A stretch of 64,000 nt of DNA. It comes from Escherichia coli. GTDB taxonomy: Bacteria; Pseudomonadota; Gammaproteobacteria; Enterobacterales; Enterobacteriaceae. The notes beneath the pieces are model-generated. The model searched no databases, was not told the origin of the DNA, and was given only the letters and a program-made list of their open reading frames with translations. The stretch is from the NCBI RefSeq assembly GCF_044324875.1, contig NZ_CP172185.1, one strand, 5' to 3'. Made by a program: the position numbers and the translations under genes. Shown in pieces: positions 3,033-39,565 of the stretch; the first letter of the stretch is position 1; every line of letters starts with the position of its first letter.

Positions 3033-4264
3033 GAGCAAGCTCCCTCTAAATAGTGATGAATCGCCTCGGCGGCTTCTTTCCCGGTTTTCACGGCATAGAC
3101 CACGGTTTTGTCACCCTCAACAATATCGCCAGCAGCAAAGACTTGCGGATCGCGGGTCTGGTAATTTTGTGTATTGATGGTGTTACGCTGCGGCTCTAAC
3201 TCCGCAAAGGCATCCAGTCTGGCATGCTGACCGACGGCGAGAATAATTTTATCTGCCGTCATCGTCAGTTCGCCCGGTAACCGTACATGCTTAAACGTGA
3301 CTTTATTGCCTTCCACGGCTACTGGCGTAAATCCATCGATGATCGAAACGCCCAGCTCCCGGGCGCTGGCAAACTCTTTTTCGCTTGCCGGAAACTCATC
3401 TAACTCTTCACGCGCTACGCAAGTTACCGCCTGACAACCGAGAACTTTCAGCGTGCTGGCTACGTCCATCGCGACATCACCGCCGCCGATAATTAATGCG
3501 CTTTGTGGAATGCTGATATCGCCTTGCGCCTGTCGTGCACGTTGCAAGAAGTCGACGGCAATCTCAACGTCGCTATGCTCAAACAGTGGTAGCCCGGAAC
3601 CGCTAGATAACCCCACGGTGACCAGTACCGCGCGGTTTTCCGCTTTCAGCTGCTCCAGGGTGAGTGTTTTACCGATTTCGTTATTGCACTTAATGGTCAC
3701 GCCCATTTTTTCAATACGGGCGATTTCTGCATCCAGTACTGATTGCGGTAACCGGAATTGCGGAATGCCGTTACGCAACCAGCCACCGGGTTGTGCTTCT
3801 TTCTCATAGATCGTGACGTCATAACCCTGGTTTGTCAGCGTCACACTGGCCTGCAATCCGGCAGGACCTGCGCCAATAATGGCGACTTTGCCGAGCGTTT
3901 TAGTACCGGGCTGATAAATTTCCATCCCAGTTTGTTGTTCAAAATCAGTAACAAAACGCTGTAAGCGGCCGATATCAATGGGAGTATCAACACCGGCACG
4001 GGTACAACCGCTTTGGCATAATTTCTCCGTCGGGCACACTCTGGCACAAACGGCACCGAGGGCATTATTTTCACGAATTGTCTCGGCAGCGCCTTTAAAA
4101 TTACGAAAGTAGATTGAGCGAATAAATTTCCCCGGATCGGTCTGTGCCGGGCAAGCCTGACTACAGGGAGCGTCGTGACATAATAAGCAGCGAGAGGCTT
4201 CTTTAATCGCCAGTAACGGTGTAAAAGCCGGAGTGAGTTCATCCAGATAATTTTGTTGCGGCAT
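3026..4264 (-). CDS. preT: NAD-dependent dihydropyrimidine dehydrogenase subunit PreT
   Basis: 412-aa ORF with an N-terminal Fe-S Cys cluster and the dinucleotide fold [10 protein letters not shown]. It overlaps the preA start. Confidence 0.93.
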
Positions 4265-13444: not shown

Positions 13445-13617
13445 AAAGTTCTTTTGTGTTGCATTGCTGGCGTAAATGTCAGCAATGCAGCATTTCCTCA
13501 CGATTCTCCTTTGACGATCGCACTTTTTGCTCGTTATGATGGCGTCGCTAGCCTCAGTAAATCCTTACTCCGGCGGTGCGCAACCCGTGCGCGTGAACCA
13601 CTATCTGAATGCTCATC

Positions 13618-30988: not shown

Positions 30989-31648
30989 TTAAATTTGCAT
31001 ACGCATCTCAACGACAACACCAAGAATTTCACAATCGCCATTGATAGGGATCAGTGGATAGCGTGGGTTTAGTGGTTTTAAGAAACATTGTCCTGCGTCT
31101 TCAATGTACTGTTTGAGGGTTGCTTCACCGGAATTTTTGAGTCTAGCGACAACATATTTTCCTGAAAAAACTTCTTTGTCAGGGTTTACAAGAATGTTCA
31201 TGCCTTCAAAGATTGAGAACTCCCCATTCTGTGACGTCATTGAGTCACCTTTTACCTCCAGCCAGAATCCGTTATCTCCTGCATATATATCGCTACCGAT
31301 CCAATCTTCTGGATAAGGTATGTAATCTTCGCAGTTCCAAGGGCCGGCGCTCACCCATGTTAATTTTGGGTATCTGTAACGCGTTGGAGAAGCTGGTTTG
31401 GGGTTTCGAACGTTTTGAATACTATCTGTAGGTGAAGGTTCGCTACCATCAAGGAGCCATTTAGGTGAGCATTTTAATGCATCTGCGATCCTGAATAGGT
31501 TTGACGATCTTGTGTCTTGTGAGTCTCCTAACTCTATTTTGCTGATTGTTACACGTGAGACACCCGTCAATTTTGCCAGGTCATCTTGTGACATGCCTAG
31601 CTGAACTCTACGCATTAACAATCTCTGTCCAAAACTATCGTGTTCCAT
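30989..31648 (-). CDS. cI: CI-type prophage repressor (XRE HTH + S24 LexA-like autopeptidase)
   Basis: 219 aa with an N-terminal HTH (MSQDDLAKLTGVSRVTISKIELG) and C-terminal S24 motifs (GDSM ... K). It is divergent from cro. Confidence 0.9.
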   Translation of the reverse strand: MEHDSFGQRLLMRRVQLGMSQDDLAKLTGVSRVTISKIELGDSQDTRSSNLFRIADALKCSPKWLLDGSEPSPTDSIQNVRNPKPASPTRYRYPKLTWVSAGPWNCEDYIPYPEDWIGSDIYAGDNGFWLEVKGDSMTSQNGEFSIFEGMNILVNPDKEVFSGKYVVARLKNSGEATLKQYIEDAGQCFLKPLNPRYPLIPINGDCEILGVVVEMRMQI

Positions 31649-31657
31649 CTTTTCTCT

Positions 31658-31748
31658 CCGTTGTCGAAATGATTTTTTCGAAACAAATATATCAAAAAAT
31701 ATTGAAATCTAGGTTTCGCAAAACTAAGATTGTTCGAAACAAACGTGT
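31658..31748. promoter_or_regulatory. Candidate tripartite OR operator region
   Basis: Three imperfect palindromes are built on TTCGAAA/TTTCG cores: ttgtcgaaatgattttttcgaaacaa, ttgaaatctaggtttcgcaa and ttgttcgaaacaa. Confidence 0.55.
31702..31730 (+). promoter_or_regulatory. Candidate PR promoter
   Basis: TTGAAA (31702-31707), a 17-nt spacer, then TAAGAT (31725-31730), about 28 nt upstream of the cro ATG. Confidence 0.5.
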
Positions 31749-31758
31749 CGAGGTCGAT

Positions 31759-31968
31759 ATGGATTTGTATGAAATTCTAAAAAACATATTTGGTTCGAAT
31801 GTTGAGATCGGTCGCCATTTTCCCCGAAAGGGAAGGGCTAGAACTGGACAGGCTGTAGGAAAGTGGAAAAAACAAGGGGTACCGGAGGATGTAGCGATTC
31901 TTTGCCATCTGGATCCCGCAATTCCTTATCAGCATCCGCCTCTCACGAACGGTAGTAATGGCGTATGA
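31759..31968 (+). CDS. cro: Cro-like repressor (YdaS/DUF1019-type HTH)
   Basis: 69 aa from MDLYEILKNIFGSNVEIGRHF. It is divergent from cI across the operator region. Confidence 0.75.
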   Translation: MDLYEILKNIFGSNVEIGRHFPRKGRARTGQAVGKWKKQGVPEDVAILCHLDPAIPYQHPPLTNGSNGV

Positions 31969-32281
31969 AATCTCTCCGGAGGGCTGTATGTCCCAGAGTT
32001 ACGTTCAGACAGAGATGCCATCTAGGTACTGTCAGGCAGACGAAGAGTGGATTCAGCAGCAGTTACAGGGGCTACCACCGTCACTGAGACGGAAGGTCGC
32101 CCTGAAATATGCGGAGGTATACGAAATCACTTTTGACGCTGAGCCTGTTTCATTCCGCAAGGAGAACAGAGCAAGGCACGAAGCAAACACAAGGCTCCGC
32201 TTGTTTGTGAGAAATCAGGGCAGAGCTTTACAGGGGTATGCAACTCAGCCGCCCCTGGCAGGAACGCAATCGCGCTCCTGA
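31958..32281 (+). CDS. Hypothetical 107-aa protein at the cII position
   Basis: ORF overlapping the cro stop. I do not recognise the family. Confidence 0.6.
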   Translation: MAYEISPEGCMSQSYVQTEMPSRYCQADEEWIQQQLQGLPPSLRRKVALKYAEVYEITFDAEPVSFRKENRARHEANTRLRLFVRNQGRALQGYATQPPLAGTQSRS

Positions 32282-32539
32282 TTGGTACCGGGCTTAAAGG
32301 TGTCCGGTGGCTGATTGAAAATGGTAAAAATATTTAGACGTCTATATGTCTGGATGTATTTACCACCCCCTAAATGTTTATGGGGGAAAGGGGGCGGTGT
32401 TGATCTTTTAGCGCGAAGCGCTGGAACAGGCTTTTCCAAGAAGACGGGTACATAGGTTAGGTAGATCTCTGTAAAGGGGAAATACCAGAAGATGTGCGGA
32501 CGCCTAGACGTCCAGATGTAAATGTTCAGAGGTGATTTT

Positions 32540-33142
32540 ATGGTTAACAGTTTTGATGGTGAAAAATGGCTTCCGGTTCCTGTTGCTCCGTATGGTGATG
32601 CTTACCTCGTTAGCTCGGCGGGACGCATCCGTGGGGTTAATCGAATTGCTGAATCGGAATTTTTTATTCGCCAAATTCGTGGCGTGTTCCTCAAGGGAAG
32701 AGTGCGCCGGGATGGATATAAAACCGTTAACCTGAGCTACAAACGTAATCGCCAAACTTTTGCCGTACACCGTCTGGTAGCGCTGGCTTTTTGCAGCAAC
32801 CCTTACAACCACCCTGAAGTGAACCATAAGGACGGCAACAAGCTGAATAACCATGCATCCAATCTGGAGTGGGTTAGCCATAGCGAAAACATTCAGCATT
32901 CTATTCACACCGGGCTGAATAATTCTCAGGGGGCGAACAACAAACAATTTAAGGGCCTGATTGTCGCCACAAATATTGCGACCAGGGAAGAGCAAACCTT
33001 TTGCGGGAAAAAGGCGCTAATTAGTGCCGGGTTTGATCACGGTAGTGTTTATGCTGTTATTGCTGGAAGAACAAAGTCTCATCGCGGTCACCATTTCAGG
33101 CGCCTCCCGCTGAACCATGGGGAGGCAGCACAATGCAGCTGA
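32540..33142 (+). CDS. HNH homing-type endonuclease (NUMOD4 + HNH_3 architecture)
   Basis: 200 aa from MVNSFDGEKWLPV... (NUMOD4-like) with the HNH core VNHKDGNKLNNHASNLEWVSHSEN. Confidence 0.8.
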   Translation: MVNSFDGEKWLPVPVAPYGDAYLVSSAGRIRGVNRIAESEFFIRQIRGVFLKGRVRRDGYKTVNLSYKRNRQTFAVHRLVALAFCSNPYNHPEVNHKDGNKLNNHASNLEWVSHSENIQHSIHTGLNNSQGANNKQFKGLIVATNIATREEQTFCGKKALISAGFDHGSVYAVIAGRTKSHRGHHFRRLPLNHGEAAQCS

Positions 33143-34791
33143 CAATCACGCCGAATTTTGCACAGGAGCGAGCGCTAAACATGTTGCGCCGTGACTGGAA
33201 GGCAAACGACACCTTCATGGTTTACTCGCCAACAGGTAGCGGTAAAACGGGTCTGGCAGCCTTCATAGTTGCTGGTTTTGTCAGCCGTGGTATGCGCGTT
33301 CTGTTCTGTGTTCCGTACACCATCCTGATTGGTCAGACGGCTAATCGGTTCGTGCAGTATGGTTTACCTGGAGATGAAATCGGTTATATCTGGGCGGATC
33401 ACCCTAACTACGATCCGGACCGGAAAATTCAGATTGCCAGCGCTGACACGCTTATTCGTCGTGTTTTTCCTGAAAATATCGATCTGCTGATTATCGACGA
33501 AGCGCACCTGCGTAAAAAACGCATCCTGAAGGATATCGAACGTCTGCGCGGCAAAGGCGTAAAGGTGATTGGCCTGTCGGGTACTCCGTTTTCTCCGTTC
33601 CTGGGCAAATACTATGACCGACTGATTAAGCCGACCACCATCGGCGAGTTAATCCAGCGTGGCGATCTGAGTAAATACGAATTTTACGCGCCAACTAAGC
33701 CGGATCTGAAAGGTGTTAAAACCACATCTTCGCTTGAGTACGGCCGCGATTACAACGAAACACAGCTGGCTGAAATCATGTGCGGCTCTACGCTGGTGGG
33801 CGACATCGTACAGAACTGGCTGGAGAATGGTCGGGATCTACCTACCATCGCTTTCTGCGTCAACGTAGCTCATGCCAATTATCTGACAATCCAGTTTAAC
33901 CTGGCGGGTGTTAACGCTGAGGTAATGACCGCCGACACTCCGGTAGATGAGCGCCAGACCATCATTCACCGCTTTGAAACCGGTGCAACGAAAATCATCG
34001 TTAGTGTGGGCGTTCTGGTAGCCGGATTCGATAGTGACGTTCGTTGCATCATCTACGCCAGACCAACAAAAAGCGAAATTCGCTGGTTGCAGGCACTCGG
34101 GCGTGGACTTCGCACCGCACCGGGTAAAGAGTCCTGCCTTATCTTCGATCACAGCGGCACCGTGCACCGTCTGGGTTATCCGGATTCAATCGAGTACGAC
34201 GATCTTCCCGGTAAGTCTGACGGCATGGAGGAAAGCACGCGCCGCGCAGTTGAGGAACGGGCCGAAAAATTGCCACATGAATGCCCTCAATGCCACTACA
34301 TGAAGCCAGCTGGCGTCTATGTTTGCCCGAAATGTGGACACAAGCCGCTGCGAGGTGAAGACGTTGATACTGACACTAGCCGCAAACTTAATAAGCTGGG
34401 TAAAAATCAGCATCAGTCCACGAAGGCAGAGAAACAGGCCTGGTGGAGTCAGATCAAATTTTATCAGCGCCAGCGTGCCTCACTGGGGCGTCCAGTCAGT
34501 GATGGATGGTGCGCTCACACTTTCAGGGAGAAATTCGGTGAATGGCCTGATGGGTTGAGTAGTTTCCCGATGGAAATAAGCCCAGAGGTAAGTAACTACA
34601 TCAGACACAAGCTGATCCGGTTTGCTAAAGGTCGTGAACGGACACGGAGGATGACGAAAAACTCATCCGAAGTGCTTTCTCTGCCACTGGTTGTTGGTGG
34701 CCGGTATGTTCCACCGGAAGAAAGTGAGGCTTGGCACATTATGCAGGCAAAGCAACAATTCCAGAAAAATATAAACAGTCTGAGTCAGTAA
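33133..34791 (+). CDS. SF2 DEAD/DEAH-box helicase with C-terminal zinc ribbon (replication)
   Basis: 552 aa with Walker A SPTGSGKTG, DEAH (IIDEAH), helicase-C motifs (QALGRGLR) and CPQC...CPKC. Confidence 0.88.
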   Translation: MQLTITPNFAQERALNMLRRDWKANDTFMVYSPTGSGKTGLAAFIVAGFVSRGMRVLFCVPYTILIGQTANRFVQYGLPGDEIGYIWADHPNYDPDRKIQIASADTLIRRVFPENIDLLIIDEAHLRKKRILKDIERLRGKGVKVIGLSGTPFSPFLGKYYDRLIKPTTIGELIQRGDLSKYEFYAPTKPDLKGVKTTSSLEYGRDYNETQLAEIMCGSTLVGDIVQNWLENGRDLPTIAFCVNVAHANYLTIQFNLAGVNAEVMTADTPVDERQTIIHRFETGATKIIVSVGVLVAGFDSDVRCIIYARPTKSEIRWLQALGRGLRTAPGKESCLIFDHSGTVHRLGYPDSIEYDDLPGKSDGMEESTRRAVEERAEKLPHECPQCHYMKPAGVYVCPKCGHKPLRGEDVDTDTSRKLNKLGKNQHQSTKAEKQAWWSQIKFYQRQRASLGRPVSDGWCAHTFREKFGEWPDGLSSFPMEISPEVSNYIRHKLIRFAKGRERTRRMTKNSSEVLSLPLVVGGRYVPPEESEAWHIMQAKQQFQKNINSLSQ

Positions 34792-34792
34792 G

Positions 34793-35761
34793 ATGAAAAC
34801 AGCAGATGCAGCGAAAGGCCGTTGGCCTGAAATATTAGAGCACTTCGGTCTGCCGCCGATAACCGGAAAAAATCACTTTAAGGGTGAATGCCCGGTATGC
34901 GGTGCACGTGGCAAGTTCCGAATTGACGACCGCGACGGTGCAGGAACGTGGATCTGTGTATGTGGTAGTGGCGATGGTATGAAACTTGTCACCCTGACAC
35001 AGGCGAAGCCATTTAACGAGATTTGTACCGAAATAGACCGCCTGATCGGTAATGATTACCAACGGGTTAAAATCCCGGTAACCAGCAGCGCCACCAGCTT
35101 ACGCAAACGGGTATTGAGCAAGTTTTCAAAACTGGAGGCACTGCGTGGTACATCCGGCGCCGCGTATCTTAATTCTCGTGGAATATTCAGTCTTCCTGCT
35201 GAGGCGATCAGGTTCAATGCCAGGCAGAGACACAACGGGAGTGTGTTCCAGTCTCTTTATTCACTTGCTACGGACGATAAAGGGGAGCTGTGCTATCTGC
35301 ATCAGACCCTGCTTGATGGTGATAAAAAAGCAGATATCGGTAGCAGTGCAAAGCGCCTCAAATCCCTGCAGGAAGATAACTATCTGGATCACGCTCGTTC
35401 TGTAGCTATCCGCATGTTTCCTGTCGCCAGCACTCTGGGTATCGCCGAAGGCATCGAAACAGCGCTGTCAGCGCACCAGATTTATAACGTGAACACCTGG
35501 GCAACCATTAACAGCGGCTTTATGAAAAAGTTCCGTGTACCAGCTGGTGTTCTGCATCTGATTATTTTTGCTGACCGTGACGAGAACAGCGCCACCGGGC
35601 TGGCTGCGGCTTGCGAATGTGCTCATGCCAATCTGATGGCAAAGAATGACCTGCAGCGCGTGAGCGTGTACTGGCCGGATCACGATGATTTCAACAATAT
35701 GCTCATGAACGGTGATCAGGTTCGGGAGCTGGTTTTCCATAAGAAAAAGGCGGTTGCGTAA
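34793..35761 (+). CDS. Zinc-ribbon/Toprim DNA primase
   Basis: 322 aa with a primase zinc ribbon (GECPVCGARGKFRID...WICVCG) and a Toprim-like region (IAEGIETALS, FADRDEN). Confidence 0.85.
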   Translation: MKTADAAKGRWPEILEHFGLPPITGKNHFKGECPVCGARGKFRIDDRDGAGTWICVCGSGDGMKLVTLTQAKPFNEICTEIDRLIGNDYQRVKIPVTSSATSLRKRVLSKFSKLEALRGTSGAAYLNSRGIFSLPAEAIRFNARQRHNGSVFQSLYSLATDDKGELCYLHQTLLDGDKKADIGSSAKRLKSLQEDNYLDHARSVAIRMFPVASTLGIAEGIETALSAHQIYNVNTWATINSGFMKKFRVPAGVLHLIIFADRDENSATGLAAACECAHANLMAKNDLQRVSVYWPDHDDFNNMLMNGDQVRELVFHKKKAVA

Positions 35762-36621
35762 TGCGTACTGATAACAACGAACATAAAGTACTATTCACCA
35801 TCCCGACGGCAGCGTACAGCTCCGCCCTCGCAAACATCAAGCCCCTGCCAGAGCAACGGAGAATCACCGGGCATAAGCAGACTGATGCTTATCTTTGGGT
35901 GCTGGAGGTTATCCGTCTGAACGAACCCGCACATCTGGATGCTGCTGAGGCTGCGCTGGTGAAAATTAAAATTTCCCCAAAAGAGGCTCAGGAACGCTAT
36001 TCGCGTTATCTGCTGGCGAATGGTTACGAACCTTTCCAGGTTGCGTTCGGCATCATCGGCATGGATAACCCGGCACAGGCAATCAGTATCGCCCGGGAGA
36101 ATATCAAAAAAGCAGCATCAGTCAGGGCTACGTTTGGTAGCTATGAAGCAGCACTCGAAGATGTGGAAGCCGAGCGAGTGATCAAGTCTTCCCAGAAATT
36201 TATCGACGATCATCTCTGGGGCTGGACTGCAGCCGAGAAGAAAGCGGGCAGAATTGACGGCATCCGTATGAATGAAATTGATGATCAGCGTCGTGCATAT
36301 GTTGATGGCTATCGTGATGTACTGCCAGAGCCTCATACATTGTCAGACGTAGTTCGTGAGTTTGTTTACTGGGACTGGCTCTACAGTGTTCGCCACACTG
36401 CAACTAAAGAACAGGGCGATGAGTTTGGTTACTTTGAGCATCACGAATCGGTATATGACCGCGAGCGCTACCTTGAAAAATTGCTGATGACCATCAAACC
36501 GGTGACACGGGCTGAAGCCGTGGAGGTGTGTCGTTGGTTTTTGGCAAGCGGAAAGGGCGAATATATGAAAGACAATAGCGCTGCGGTCATACTCAATCTG
36601 GTTGGGGAGTGTGAGCAATGA
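35761..36621 (+). CDS. Hypothetical 286-aa protein of the replication module
   Basis: The ATG overlaps the primase stop. I recognise no motif. Confidence 0.7.
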   Translation: MRTDNNEHKVLFTIPTAAYSSALANIKPLPEQRRITGHKQTDAYLWVLEVIRLNEPAHLDAAEAALVKIKISPKEAQERYSRYLLANGYEPFQVAFGIIGMDNPAQAISIARENIKKAASVRATFGSYEAALEDVEAERVIKSSQKFIDDHLWGWTAAEKKAGRIDGIRMNEIDDQRRAYVDGYRDVLPEPHTLSDVVREFVYWDWLYSVRHTATKEQGDEFGYFEHHESVYDRERYLEKLLMTIKPVTRAEAVEVCRWFLASGKGEYMKDNSAAVILNLVGECEQ

Positions 36622-39411: not shown

Positions 39412-39487
39412 GGCCCTTTAGCTCAGTGGTGAGAGCGAGCGACTCATAATCGCAAGGGCGCTGGTTCAAATTCAGCAAGGGCCACCA
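39412..39487 (+). tRNA. tRNA with CAT anticodon (Ile2/lysidine type like phage ileZ, or Met)
   Basis: Manual cloverleaf: acceptor GGCCCTT/AAGGGCC, D arm GCTC/GAGC, anticodon loop CTCATAA, T loop TTCAAAT, encoded CCA. There is one A-A mismatch at the top of the anticodon stem, and 53-61 is G-T. Confidence 0.8.
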
Positions 39488-39488
39488 A

Positions 39489-39565
39489 CCGCTACTAGCT
39501 CATCAGGAAAGAGCGTCAACCCTTTAAGTTGAGTGCGCTAGGTTCGATTCCCCGCTGGCGGTCCA
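39489..39565 (+). pseudogene. Decayed tRNA-like gene
   Basis: Canonical spacing, intact D and anticodon stems, and an encoded CCA. However, the anticodon loop is CCTTTAA (C at position 33), there are two T-stem mismatches and a C-C pair at 7-66. Confidence 0.4.

What the first reader, a model, noticed from the sequence alone, without database searches (positions are those of the whole stretch)
32282..33142. Free-standing HNH homing-type endonuclease with an upstream structured non-coding leader, inserted just before the replication helicase
Seen in sequence:
- A NUMOD4/HNH ORF overlaps the helicase start by 10 nt.
- It is preceded by 258 bp of non-coding DNA.
- That leader contains a strong G/C hairpin (accaccccct-N17-agggggcggtg, about 32362-32399) followed by a T-rich stretch.
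- The leader also contains two copies of TAGACGTC followed by C(A/TG)GATGTA, at 32335-32358 and 32505-32520.

Established knowledge: such endonucleases are selfish elements that home into conserved phage genes, and they can exclude competing phages during co-infection.

Inference: the hairpin may be the tR1-type terminator of the PR operon. The repeated motif could be a recognition, regulatory or origin-related site. The endonuclease may target the helicase allele of related phages.
Basis: partly seen in the sequence, partly recalled or inferred. Interest (0 to 1): 0.33.

Follow-up and report, generated by a model that had tools for sequence, protein, structure and literature searches.

The report
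Optional HNH nuclease gene before phage helicase
An I-HmuI-like HNH endonuclease gene sits as an optional, horizontally exchanged passenger just upstream of a prophage's replication helicase, and the "leader" in front of it is really part of a strongly conserved non-coding region that precedes this helicase in nearly all related phages examined, with or without the nuclease.

Summary
ORF 32540-33142 is a NUMOD4+HNH protein, homologous to the homing nickase I-HmuI (PDB 1u3e, E 1e-17). It overlaps the SF2 helicase start by 10 nt and follows 258 nt of non-coding DNA. The two TAGACGTC..GATGTA copies are non-random.

The gene is optional: 6 of 86 E. coli genomes with this junction carry it. Other relatives have nothing there, or an unrelated 122-aa BamHI-like PD-(D/E)XK gene, or a 91-aa NUMOD4-only remnant. 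HNH homologues down to 52% identity always occupy this same slot, and HNH and helicase divergence disagree. That fits a slot-specific selfish nuclease gene.

The leader is not the nuclease's own. It is the widely shared 5' half of a ~415-nt non-coding spacer in front of Eru1-type helicase-primase modules. That spacer is more conserved than neighbouring synonymous sites, and it holds covarying hairpins, a G-tract and two dyad elements. The G/C hairpin is not terminator-like (17-nt loop, z -0.49).

The spacer's function is unknown: replication origin or transcribed regulatory leader. Overall this is an ordinary homing-type nuclease in an undescribed, interesting setting.

The parts
31958..32281 (+). 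Upstream gene in the cII position (107 aa). Function unknown.
   Evidence: PHROG phrog_852, E 3.7e-41, unknown function. 98% identical to phi467 from 31980 up to 32314. Its 3' end carries a conserved CGCGCTCCTGA that resembles boxA; that resemblance rests on my own knowledge.
32287..32308 (+). Hairpin ACCGGGC-[TTAAAGGT]-GTCCGGT. The 8-nt loop is invariant; relatives have one or two copies.
   Evidence: About 28 distinct stem variants (several unrelated stem families) share the same loop across loci. Stem mismatches are 17 G.U against 3 A.C, so it acts on the + (sense) strand.
32315..32407 (+). First donor-type patch: d1 hairpin, C-arm and G-tract. It differs from phi467/N61-type relatives and matches the L104/L106/L113 leaders.
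   Evidence: Homology to phi467 stops at 32314 and resumes at 32408. This stretch is identical in L104 and related in L106 and L113.
32322..32365 (+). Dyad element d1: a 44-nt hairpin whose apex is motif copy 1 (TAGACGTCTATATGTCTGGATGTA, 32335-32358).
   Evidence: -19.1 kcal/mol, z -6.0. Salmonella L106 has compensatory changes (TGGTAAA/TTTACCA becomes TGGTGAG/CTCACCA) and an apical insertion that itself folds as a hairpin.
32362..32399 (+).
   Evidence: repeat I4. z -0.49. The G-tract is present in nearly all spacer types examined. The C-arm occurs only in the AGACGT-class leaders.
32410..32422 (+). GAA-triloop mini-hairpin AGCGC-GAA-GCGCT.
   Evidence: -9.8 kcal/mol, z -2.65. It covaries: AGTGC/GCACT in phi467, Fels-1 and Klebsiella; AGCCC/GGGCT in L103 and L021.
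32408..32486 (+). Conserved core of the spacer (CTGGAACAGGCTTTTCCAA..GGTTAGGTAGATC).
   Evidence: 89% identical to phi467. The GGTTA(A/G)GTAGATC or ACAGATAGATC core is found in 17 of 19 representative relatives, including TL-2011c. The exact pattern is not found in Morganella L017 or Pectobacterium L018, which have looser GATC-containing cores.
32487..33118 (+). Second donor-type patch: d2, the Shine-Dalgarno sequence and nearly all of the HNH ORF.
   Evidence: No homology to phi467 or N61 across this stretch. Collinear with L104 at 96.6% over 31980-36136.
32498..32520 (+). Dyad element d2: GGACG-CCTAGA-CGTCC, overlapping motif copy 2 (32505-32520). It reads as three 8-nt units: GGACGCCT AGACGTCC AGATGTAA.
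   Evidence: -7.5 kcal/mol, z -1.8. Homologous AGACGT-type elements occur at the same position in L104, L106, L113, L103, L021 and L017.
32540..33142 (+). NUMOD4-HNH-HTH endonuclease gene (200 aa) of the I-HmuI family. Its stop codon lies 10 nt inside the helicase ORF.
   Evidence: dN/dS is 0.08-0.10 against L104 and L106.
33133..34791 (+). SF2 (DEAD/ResIII) replication helicase, Eru1A-like.
   Evidence: Pfam. 66.7% identical to the TL-2011c helicase, which is the helicase defined as eru1A in PMC8044961.
34793..35761 (+). Zn-ribbon/Toprim primase, Eru1B-like.
   Evidence: Pfam Zn_Ribbon_Prim, DUF7146 and Toprim_3.

Best explanation
The window holds a lambdoid prophage whose replication module is of the Eru1 kind: an SF2 helicase plus a Toprim primase, with no O/P genes.

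The gene. Directly 5' of the helicase gene is a slot that holds different things in different relatives: nothing, a small BamHI-like PD-(D/E)XK gene, or an I-HmuI-family HNH gene. The window carries the HNH version.

How it is expressed (inferred). The gene would be read from the early rightward transcript. It is translationally coupled to the helicase, because its stop codon lies 10 nt inside the helicase ORF.

How it spreads (inferred, not shown). When an HNH-bearing phage meets an HNH-less relative, the enzyme would nick or cut the HNH-less allele near the slot. Recombinational repair would then copy the gene, plus short flanking patches, into that genome. The window itself is such a mosaic. 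It has L104-type sequence at 32315-32407 and 32487-33118, set in a phi467-type backbone that resumes at 33119.

The leader. The 258-nt 'leader' is not part of the mobile gene. It is the widely shared half of a ~415-nt conserved non-coding region in front of the helicase. That region contains a hairpin with an invariant loop, a G-tract, a GATC-containing core and two dyad elements. The region most likely acts as a cis element of the replication module, either an origin or a regulatory leader. The HNH gene has simply replaced its dispensable 3' half.
For: Family:
- NUMOD4 and HNH_3 domains.
- Match to PDB 1u3e (I-HmuI) at E 9.6e-18 over residues 47-188. The equivalents of His75 and Asn96 are kept, and the C-terminal HTH region aligns.
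- PADLOC 'homing endonuclease' model, E 1.4e-23.

Optional cargo:
- 6 of 86 E. coli genomes with this junction carry it.
- The slot survey gave 69 loci with no cargo, 23 with the PD gene, 14 with a full HNH gene and 2 with NUMOD4 only. Eleven of the 14 HNH loci (L104-L114) were fetched with HNH as the query, so that count is biased upward.
- Deposited phage genomes lack any cargo: YP3 (wastewater), Fostie (inlet water sediment) and ENT39118.

Same slot in distant hosts:
- Homologues at 89, 86, 59 and 56% identity, from E. coli, Salmonella, Serratia and Yersinia, all abut the helicase.

Horizontal movement:
- HNH against helicase identity is 88.8 vs 98.9% (window-L104), 85.8 vs 76.4% (window-L106) and 53.3 vs 80.0% (L106-L109).
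- The closest helicases are HNH-less.
- The same HNH is linked to at least 3 different cro types.

Second nuclease fold in the same slot:
- The 122-aa cargo modelled at pLDDT 85.6.

Degeneration stage:
- A 91-aa NUMOD4-only ORF occupies the slot in L103 and L021.

Leader independent of the HNH gene:
- The spacer is present in cargo-less relatives.
- Its mean pairwise identity is 0.935, against 0.798 at third codon positions of the adjacent helicase. For divergent pairs the figures are 0.894 against 0.657.
Against: - No cleavage or homing has been shown, and no target site can be read from the sequences.
- The residue equivalent to the I-HmuI metal ligand Asp74 is Asn throughout this clade, so full activity is not certain.
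- Strong purifying selection acts on the HNH gene (dN/dS 0.08-0.10) and on the nuclease-less NUMOD4-only ORF (dN/dS 0.05). With the invariable coupling to the helicase, this also fits a protein that serves the phage.
- In E. coli complete genomes the gene is found only at this one locus, so there is no direct sign of recent spread between sites.
Confidence: 0.6

Rival explanations
1. The nuclease gene is a domesticated accessory of the replication module rather than a selfish passenger. Its NUMOD4 domain would bind the AGACGT-type dyads of the leader. The protein would then regulate or assist initiation, for example by nicking at an origin or by autoregulating the helicase operon.
For: - The gene is always in the same slot and always translationally coupled to the helicase, from E. 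coli to Yersinia and Serratia.
- dN/dS is 0.08-0.10 for the HNH gene and 0.05 for the NUMOD4-only ORF that has lost the nuclease domain.
- AGACGT-class dyads accompany NUMOD4 proteins in E. coli, Salmonella and Serratia.
- From my own knowledge: I-HmuI is a nickase, and I-TevI doubles as an autorepressor.
Against: - 69 loci have no cargo at all, including the deposited phage genomes YP3, Fostie and ENT39118.
- Morganella L017 has AGACGT-class dyads without any NUMOD4 gene. The Yersinia HNH lineage has GTAC-class dyads.
- An unrelated PD-(D/E)XK gene can occupy the same slot.
Confidence: 0.2
2. The slot is a cargo hot spot for exclusion or defence genes. The HNH and the PD-(D/E)XK nucleases would mainly protect the lysogen or the phage by degrading competing phage DNA, without copying themselves.
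For: - Two unrelated nuclease folds alternate at one intergenic position next to a conserved gene.
- The prophage setting fits.
- The HNH matches a PADLOC entry.
Against: - The PADLOC entry is simply 'homing endonuclease'. The PD cargo has no defence-family hit.
- No partner, immunity or methylase gene lies in the slot.
- The genes sit inside the early lytic operon, so they should be repressed in a lysogen (inference).
- The mosaic flanks look like co-conversion.
Confidence: 0.12
3. The G/C hairpin 32362-32399 would be the tR1-type terminator of the PR operon. The repeated motif would be a recognition or origin site tied to the HNH gene.
For: - The hairpin exists and is followed by UUGAUCUUUU.
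- No gap separates the cro-position and cII-position genes, so any early terminator or nut region would have to lie after the cII-position gene.
- The C-arm plus G-arm pair is conserved in the L104, L106 and L113 leaders.
Against: - The loop is 17 nt, and the hairpin is not picked up by the terminator scan.
- Its stability equals that of shuffles, z -0.49.
- The C-arm is absent from most relatives, where only the G-tract is kept.
- No + strand terminator-like site is found in the cargo-less spacer either.
- The motif class is not tied to the HNH gene.
Confidence: 0.1

Closest known systems
I-HmuI (phage SPO1 HNH homing endonuclease, PDB 1u3e)
   Same: - Same domain order: an N-terminal DNA-binding sheet (NUMOD4 region), the HNH motif, then a helical linker and a C-terminal HTH.
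- Sequence match at E 9.6e-18 over 142 residues.
- The equivalents of His75 and Asn96 are kept.
   Different: - I-HmuI is encoded inside a group I intron of a DNA polymerase gene. This gene stands free between genes.
- The Asp74 equivalent is Asn here.
- Nicking activity and the target site are untested here.
Free-standing homing endonuclease genes of T-even phages (seg and mob genes). This comparison rests on my own knowledge.
   Same: - An intergenic nuclease gene next to a conserved essential gene.
- Present in some relatives and absent from others.
- Different nuclease families alternate at one position.
- Flanks are mosaic, as expected from co-conversion.
   Different: - The host is a temperate lambdoid prophage.
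- The slot lies inside a conserved non-coding region of the replication module.
- The gene is translationally coupled to the downstream helicase.
- No cleavage data exist.
Eru1 replication unit of Stx phages (TL-2011c; Llarena et al. 2021, PMC8044961)
   Same: - An SF2 DEAD/DEAH helicase followed by a Toprim primase, downstream of cI/cro.
- The window helicase is 66.7% identical to the TL-2011c helicase, defined as eru1A in the paper.
- TL-2011c also has a small gene (gp29, PD-(D/E)XK-like) overlapping the helicase start. It also has the G-tract and the GGTTAGGTAGATC core.
   Different: - The third gene differs: a 286-aa protein of unknown function here, against DUF1367/NinB in TL-2011c.
- The two Eru papers I searched do not mention the slot gene, the nuclease cargo or the non-coding spacer.
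Lambda nutR/tR1 region. This comparison rests on my own knowledge.
   Same: - It lies downstream of the early rightward genes.
- A CGCTCCTGA sequence resembling boxA is followed a few nt later by a stem-loop with an invariant loop and free stem sequence. That is the way boxB behaves.
   Different: - It lies after, not before, the cII-position gene.
- The loop is 8 nt (UUAAAGGU), not a GNRA-like pentaloop.
- No N-like protein was identified.
- A search of the whole window on both strands found no second copy of the loop motif in the early left region near cI.
- No convincing terminator follows.

Membership tests
HNH homing endonuclease, I-HmuI type | HNH (beta-beta-alpha-metal) motif with the catalytic His and the metal-binding Asn | tested here: met
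   Pfam HNH_3 E 9.8e-9. In the alignment to 1u3e, His75 aligns to His and Asn96 to Asn. Asp74 aligns to Asn, a change kept across the clade.
HNH homing endonuclease, I-HmuI type | Accessory DNA-binding modules: an N-terminal NUMOD4-type region and a C-terminal HTH | tested here: met
   NUMOD4 E 4.6e-9. The C-terminus aligns with the I-HmuI HTH region, residues 130-170. Close homologues carry PF22083 I-HmuI_NUMOD-like.
HNH homing endonuclease, I-HmuI type | Sporadic presence at one homologous site in related genomes, with empty alleles | tested here: met
   In 6 of 86 E. coli genomes. 69 cargo-less loci. Same slot in Salmonella, Serratia and Yersinia. Identities discordant with the helicase.
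HNH homing endonuclease, I-HmuI type | Site-specific nicking or cleavage of the gene-less allele, and gene conversion into it | not testable with these tools
   Only indirect evidence exists: mosaic patches at 32315-32407 and 32487-33118 in a phi467-type backbone.
HNH homing endonuclease, I-HmuI type | Encoded within a self-splicing intron, as I-HmuI itself is | tested here: not met
   The gene lies between ORFs. The flanking helicase and upstream gene are intact. No Rfam intron or any other RNA family matches in 31600-33300.
Rho-independent (tR1-type) terminator | A G+C-rich stem with a short loop, followed at once by a U-run, and more stable than background | tested here: not met
   17-nt loop. 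Not reported by the terminator scan. z -0.49. A U-rich tail is present (UUGAUCUUUU).
Rho-independent (tR1-type) terminator | Conserved at the same place in relatives | tested here: inconclusive
   The C-arm is kept in the L104, L106 and L113 leaders but is absent from the GTAC-class and TL-2011c spacers, where only the G-tract remains.
Eru1-type phage replication unit | SF2 DEAD/DEAH helicase followed by a Toprim primase, downstream of cI/cro | tested here: met
   Pfam. 66.7% identity to the TL-2011c helicase, defined as eru1A in PMC8044961.
Eru1-type phage replication unit | Third gene eru1C (DUF1367/NinB-like) | tested here: not met
   The window has a 286-aa protein (phrog_6204, no Pfam hit) after the primase. 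TL-2011c has NinB/Orf there.
Lambda-type nut site | boxA followed by a boxB stem-loop, with a cognate N protein and a second site in the left operon | tested here: inconclusive
   A hairpin with an invariant loop and covarying stems, with 17 G.U against 3 A.C mismatches, supports a sense-strand RNA element. No matching hairpin was found in the early left region near cI, and no N-like protein was recognised.

The most novel reading that the evidence does not exclude
The conserved ~415-nt non-coding spacer would be the so far unmapped origin or initiation region of Eru1-type helicase-primase modules. These modules encode no recognisable initiator.

Initiation would be driven by transcription. 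The G-rich sense strand (GGGGG-N3-GGGGG, up to seven G-runs) would favour an R-loop. The hairpins with invariant loops, and the paired dyads, would form on the displaced strand or on the RNA and direct helicase and primase loading.

In this reading, the small nucleases encoded right at its edge are not mere passengers. These are the I-HmuI-like nickase, the BamHI-like protein and the NUMOD4-only protein. They would be origin-associated factors that evolved from, or alternate with, homing endonucleases.
Probability: 0.15. Interest if true: 0.7.

Novelty: new member of a known kind. Interest (0 to 1): 0.36.

Why it matters
The HNH gene on its own is one more homing-type nuclease in a phage genome.

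What is less ordinary is its setting. The same intergenic slot, across Escherichia, Salmonella, Klebsiella, Yersinia and Serratia prophages, alternates between four states: an HNH gene, an unrelated restriction-fold gene, a truncated NUMOD4-only gene kept under purifying selection, and nothing.

The slot lies inside a non-coding region that is more conserved than the neighbouring synonymous sites. This replication module type (Eru1) is the one carried by the Stx2a phages of the O104:H4 and O103:H25 outbreak strains. Neither its origin nor its early regulation was mentioned in the two Eru papers I searched.

The spacer elements mapped here give concrete candidates for origin mapping. They also offer a system for studying how selfish nucleases live next to, or are recruited by, a replication module.

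Tried and rejected
- Rfam. Neither the gathering threshold on the whole window nor E<=10 on 31600-33300 gave any family for the leader.
- Nut-like partner. I searched the window for a second TTAAAGGT hairpin in the left operon and found none near cI.
- Dyads as cI/Cro operators. Rejected. The cI-cro intergenic region uses TTCGAAAC-type sites. L106 and L107 share the leader but have different repressors.
- A replication protein that covaries with the dyad class. None found. Window and phi467 are 96.7% identical over helicase, primase and the 286-aa gene, yet they differ in dyad class. Only a hypervariable linker in the helicase (aa ~503-532) tracks the classes, and it also varies within a class.
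- Dyads specified by the cargo gene. Rejected as a rule. There are counter-examples: Yersinia HNH with GTAC dyads, and Morganella with AGACGT dyads and no cargo.
- 'Empty' spacers as deletion derivatives of the PD cargo. There is only a suggestive 15/17 match (CTTCCTGGAAGAGTGATTT against CTCCTGGAAGAGCAATT). The global alignment is not convincing, so I do not claim this.
- Covariation within the cargo-less spacer type. There is too little variation: covariation term -1.09, and 4 of 88 pairs with changes on both sides. Support for structure comes only from comparisons across spacer types.
- A long-range helix between motif copy 1 and the HNH ribosome-binding region. It is predicted for the window, and a long-range helix is also predicted for L113. 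It is not predicted for L104 or L106, where the local d1 hairpin wins. Not pursued.
- Sequence searches for the 122-aa cargo. Pfam, NCBIfam, PADLOC and PDB sequence searches gave nothing. Only the fold comparison identified it.
- Literature. The two Eru papers do not mention the HNH gene, the slot gene or the spacer. The other full-text searches I ran did not turn up a description of an HNH gene at this helicase.
Full report
**What is in the window**

The region is the early right arm of a lambdoid prophage.

| Coordinates | Strand | Feature | Evidence |
|---|---|---|---|
| 30989-31648 | - | S24/HTH repressor | |
| 31759-31968 | + | small gene in the cro position | |
| 31958-32281 | + | 107-aa gene in the cII position, function unknown (phrog_852) | |
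| 32282-32539 | + | 258 nt with no supported gene | |
| 32540-33142 | + | NUMOD4/HNH ORF | |
| 33133-34791 | + | SF2 helicase | |
| 34793-35761 | + | Zn-ribbon/Toprim primase | |
| 35761-36621 | + | 286-aa protein of unknown function | |

This helicase-plus-primase arrangement is the 'Eru1' replication unit described for Stx phages such as TL-2011c (PMC8044961). The window helicase is 66.7% identical to the TL-2011c helicase.

**Checking the observation**

- Pfam gives NUMOD4 (E 4.6e-9) and HNH_3 (E 9.8e-9).
- The ORF ends 10 nt inside the helicase ORF.
- ATG 32540 is the likely start, because GAGGTG lies 5 nt upstream.
- The inverted repeat ACCACCCCCT/AGGGGGCGGT, with 17 nt between the arms, is found. 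As RNA it is no more stable than shuffled sequence: -15.9 kcal/mol, z -0.49. The terminator scan does not report it.
- The composite motif TAGACGTC-N(0-10)-GATGTA occurs exactly twice in 64 kb, at the stated positions. The expectation from shuffles is 0.00.

**Is the HNH gene optional?**

Yes.
- Among complete E. coli genomes, 86 contain this cII-helicase junction, but only 6 contain the HNH segment. Each has it once, at this locus.
- Phage phi467 shares the upstream gene up to 32314 (98%). It also shares a middle piece, 32408-32486 (89%), and everything from 33119 on (96.7% over 3.5 kb). In place of the HNH it has a different 122-aa gene.
- Other genomes have no gene at all there, only a 413-430-nt non-coding spacer.

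I fetched about 100 further loci through the helicase protein and classified the slot.

| Slot state | Loci |
|---|---|
| No cargo | 69 |
| 122-125-aa PD gene | 23 |
| Full-length HNH | 14 |
| 91-aa NUMOD4-only ORF | 2 |

Eleven of the 14 HNH loci (L104-L114) were fetched with HNH as the query, so that count is biased upward. The deposited phage genomes YP3, Fostie and ENT39118 have the cargo-less spacer, so the cargo appears dispensable.

**What the HNH protein is**

It matches I-HmuI, the SPO1 intron-encoded HNH homing nickase (PDB 1u3e), at E 9.6e-18 over residues 47-188.
- The equivalents of His75 and Asn96 are conserved. Asp74 is replaced by Asn. The roles of these residues are from my own knowledge of the I-HmuI structure.
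- The C-terminal HTH region aligns.
- PADLOC files it only under 'homing endonuclease'.
- Similar genes are annotated as HNH homing endonucleases in over 2,500 phage records, but none exceeds about 41% identity over most of its length.

**The lineage is tied to this slot**

Homologues were found at 89% (E. coli), 86% (Salmonella), 59% (Serratia) and 56% (Yersinia) identity. The list runs down to 52%. All four whose genomic context was examined lie immediately upstream of, and overlap or abut, the same kind of helicase.

Divergence of HNH and helicase is discordant.

| Pair | HNH identity | Helicase identity |
|---|---|---|
| window vs L104 | 88.8% | 98.9% |
| window vs L106 | 85.8% | 76.4% |
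| L106 vs L109 | 53.3% | 80.0% |

The nearest helicase relatives of each HNH+ phage are HNH-less. The identical HNH is found next to at least three different cro types. So the gene moves relative to its neighbours, but always into the same place.

The window is a recombinant. L104-like sequence runs to 33118, then a phi467-like helicase begins. The join is in the GGGGAGGCAGC Shine-Dalgarno region.

In L103 (E. coli) and L021 (Salmonella) only the first 91 codons remain, so the nuclease domain is gone.

**The alternative cargo is also a nuclease fold**

TL-2011c gp29 and Fels-1 STM0899 belong to this family.

Two unrelated nuclease folds alternating at one intergenic position is what free-standing homing endonuclease genes do in T-even phages (my own knowledge).

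**Selection**

dN/dS is 0.08-0.10 among the E. coli and Salmonella HNH genes. It is 0.05 for the NUMOD4-only ORF, at dS of about 1.

An actively homing gene can be under such constraint. The constraint on a nuclease-less remnant, however, is the main reason to keep open a 'recruited by the phage' rival.

**The leader**

The 258 nt are not specific to the HNH gene. They correspond to the 5' half of the spacer found in relatives. In order, the spacer contains:

1. One or two hairpins with the invariant 8-nt loop TTAAAGGT. The stems are free to vary: about 28 distinct stem variants in several unrelated stem families. Stem mismatches are 17 G.U against 3 A.C, so the element works on the sense strand as RNA or as displaced DNA.
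2. Dyad element d1.
3. A G-tract, from GGGGGAAAGGGGG in the window to seven G-runs in the cargo-less type.
4. In several types, a GAA-triloop mini-hairpin with compensatory changes: AGCGC/GCGCT, AGTGC/GCACT, AGCCC/GGGCT.
5. A core, CTTTTCCAA..GGTTA(A/G)GTAGATC, with GATC sites.
6. Dyad element d2.
7. The cargo, or in its absence further hairpins and a short upstream ORF that ends inside the helicase start.

In the cargo-less type the spacer is more conserved than synonymous positions next door. Mean pairwise identity is 0.935 against 0.798 at third codon positions. For divergent pairs it is 0.894 against 0.657. Within that type there is too little variation to show covariation.

The window has lost item 7 to the HNH gene. 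Several PD-cargo phages lack it too, so that half is dispensable.

**The repeated motif**

d1 and d2 resemble each other within a phage but differ between lineages.

| Dyad class | Form | Where found |
|---|---|---|
| GTAC | GTACTA-N6-TAGTAC | cargo-less, phi467/Fels-1/Klebsiella, and Yersinia HNH phages |
| AGACGT | TAGACGTCTA / AGACGT-type | window, L104, L106-108, L113 and cargo-less Morganella L017; d2 only in L103/L021 |
| TAGTTG | TTAGTTGC..GCAACTAA and ATAGTT..AACTAT | TL-2011c |

- The class does not follow the immunity region. L106 and L107 have the same leader but different repressors.
- It does not follow the replication proteins. Window and phi467 are 96.7% identical there.
- It does not strictly follow the cargo.
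- d1 is a real hairpin. Salmonella L106 keeps it through compensatory changes and an apical insertion that folds on itself.

What they bind, or whether they pair with each other, remains open.

**Terminator idea**

The cro-position and cII-position genes overlap.

A CGCTCCTGA sequence followed by the invariant-loop hairpin looks like a boxA/boxB pair (my own knowledge). Against this:
- No partner site was found in the early left region near cI, and no N-like protein was recognised.
- The G/C hairpin fails the usual terminator criteria.
- The cargo-less spacer has no + strand terminator-like site either.

**Conclusion**

The most likely account, at confidence 0.6, is a slot-specific, horizontally exchanged I-HmuI-type homing nuclease gene. 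It has replaced the dispensable 3' half of a conserved non-coding cis region of an Eru1-type replication module, and it is translated in tandem with the helicase.

Shown: family membership, optional presence, fixed slot, discordant phylogeny, recombination boundaries, and independence and conservation of the leader.

Inferred: nuclease activity, homing, and the role of the spacer.

I could not decide between an origin and a transcribed regulatory leader for the spacer. The G-rich sense strand, the lack of any initiator gene and the clustered GATC sites make a transcription-dependent origin an attractive but unproven reading.

I found no description of the slot, its nuclease cargo or the spacer in the two Eru papers or in the other literature searches I ran.

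Noticed in passing
L002:3319-3731 (and equivalents in about 60 loci); window 32282-32539 is its 5' half: A ~415-nt non-coding spacer in front of Eru1-type helicases is more conserved than adjacent synonymous sites (0.935 against 0.798 identity). It contains a run of up to seven G-tracts on the sense strand.
   Followed up: partly
L103:2646-2921 and L021 at about 3730-4010: A 91-aa NUMOD4-only ORF (the HNH domain is deleted) sits in the same slot and overlaps the helicase start. dN/dS is 0.05 between the E. coli and Salmonella copies, so it is maintained rather than decaying.
   Followed up: partly
L001:4553-4921 (phi467), L115:1964-2341 (TL-2011c gp29), L116:2017-2385 (Fels-1 STM0899): The alternative slot gene (120-125 aa, annotated as hypothetical) is predicted to have a BamHI-like restriction-endonuclease fold, with invariant E72 and D74. 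It has no sequence-family assignment.
   Followed up: yes
L049, L057, L065, L068, L070, L074, L076, L087, L099, L019 (contig ends): About ten public contigs start 281-325 nt upstream of the helicase ATG, inside the G-tract of the spacer. These are probably assembly breaks at poly-G, but real DNA ends were not excluded.
   Followed up: no
L002 at about 3655-3665 (GGGGAGGCCACCAGCCATG); absent from the window: The complement of the E. coli Chi site (CCACCAGC) is conserved in the 3' half of the cargo-less and phi467-type spacers, just upstream of a short 19-codon ORF that ends inside the helicase start.
   Followed up: no
window 34639-34728 (helicase aa ~503-532): A hypervariable linker lies near the helicase C-terminus. 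Window and L104 share one version, while phi467 and N61 have others. The rest of the protein is over 98% identical.
   Followed up: partly
window 13533-13613 (+): Rfam Peptidase-S11 RNA motif, 72.8 bits against a gathering score of 34.8. It lies in the part of the window to the left of the prophage early region.
   Followed up: no
window 39412-39565 (+): Two adjacent tRNA genes, tRNA-Met(CAT) and tRNA-Lys(TTT), lie downstream of the replication module. Stx-type phages often have tRNA genes ahead of the late region.
   Followed up: no
NZ_CP083847.1 17658-18069 (Enterobacter asburiae, 42.9-kb record): The cargo-less spacer occurs at 92.5% identity on a 42.9-kb non-mobilizable 'plasmid' record. 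This may be an episomal or circularised phage of this replication type.
   Followed up: no
L017:3700-4000 (Morganella morganii): A distant, cargo-less relative (helicase about 70% identical) has AGACGT-class elements at both dyad positions: AGACGTTTAGCCGTCCAGATGG and AGACGTATAGACGTCC. They look like 8-nt tandem units.
   Followed up: partly
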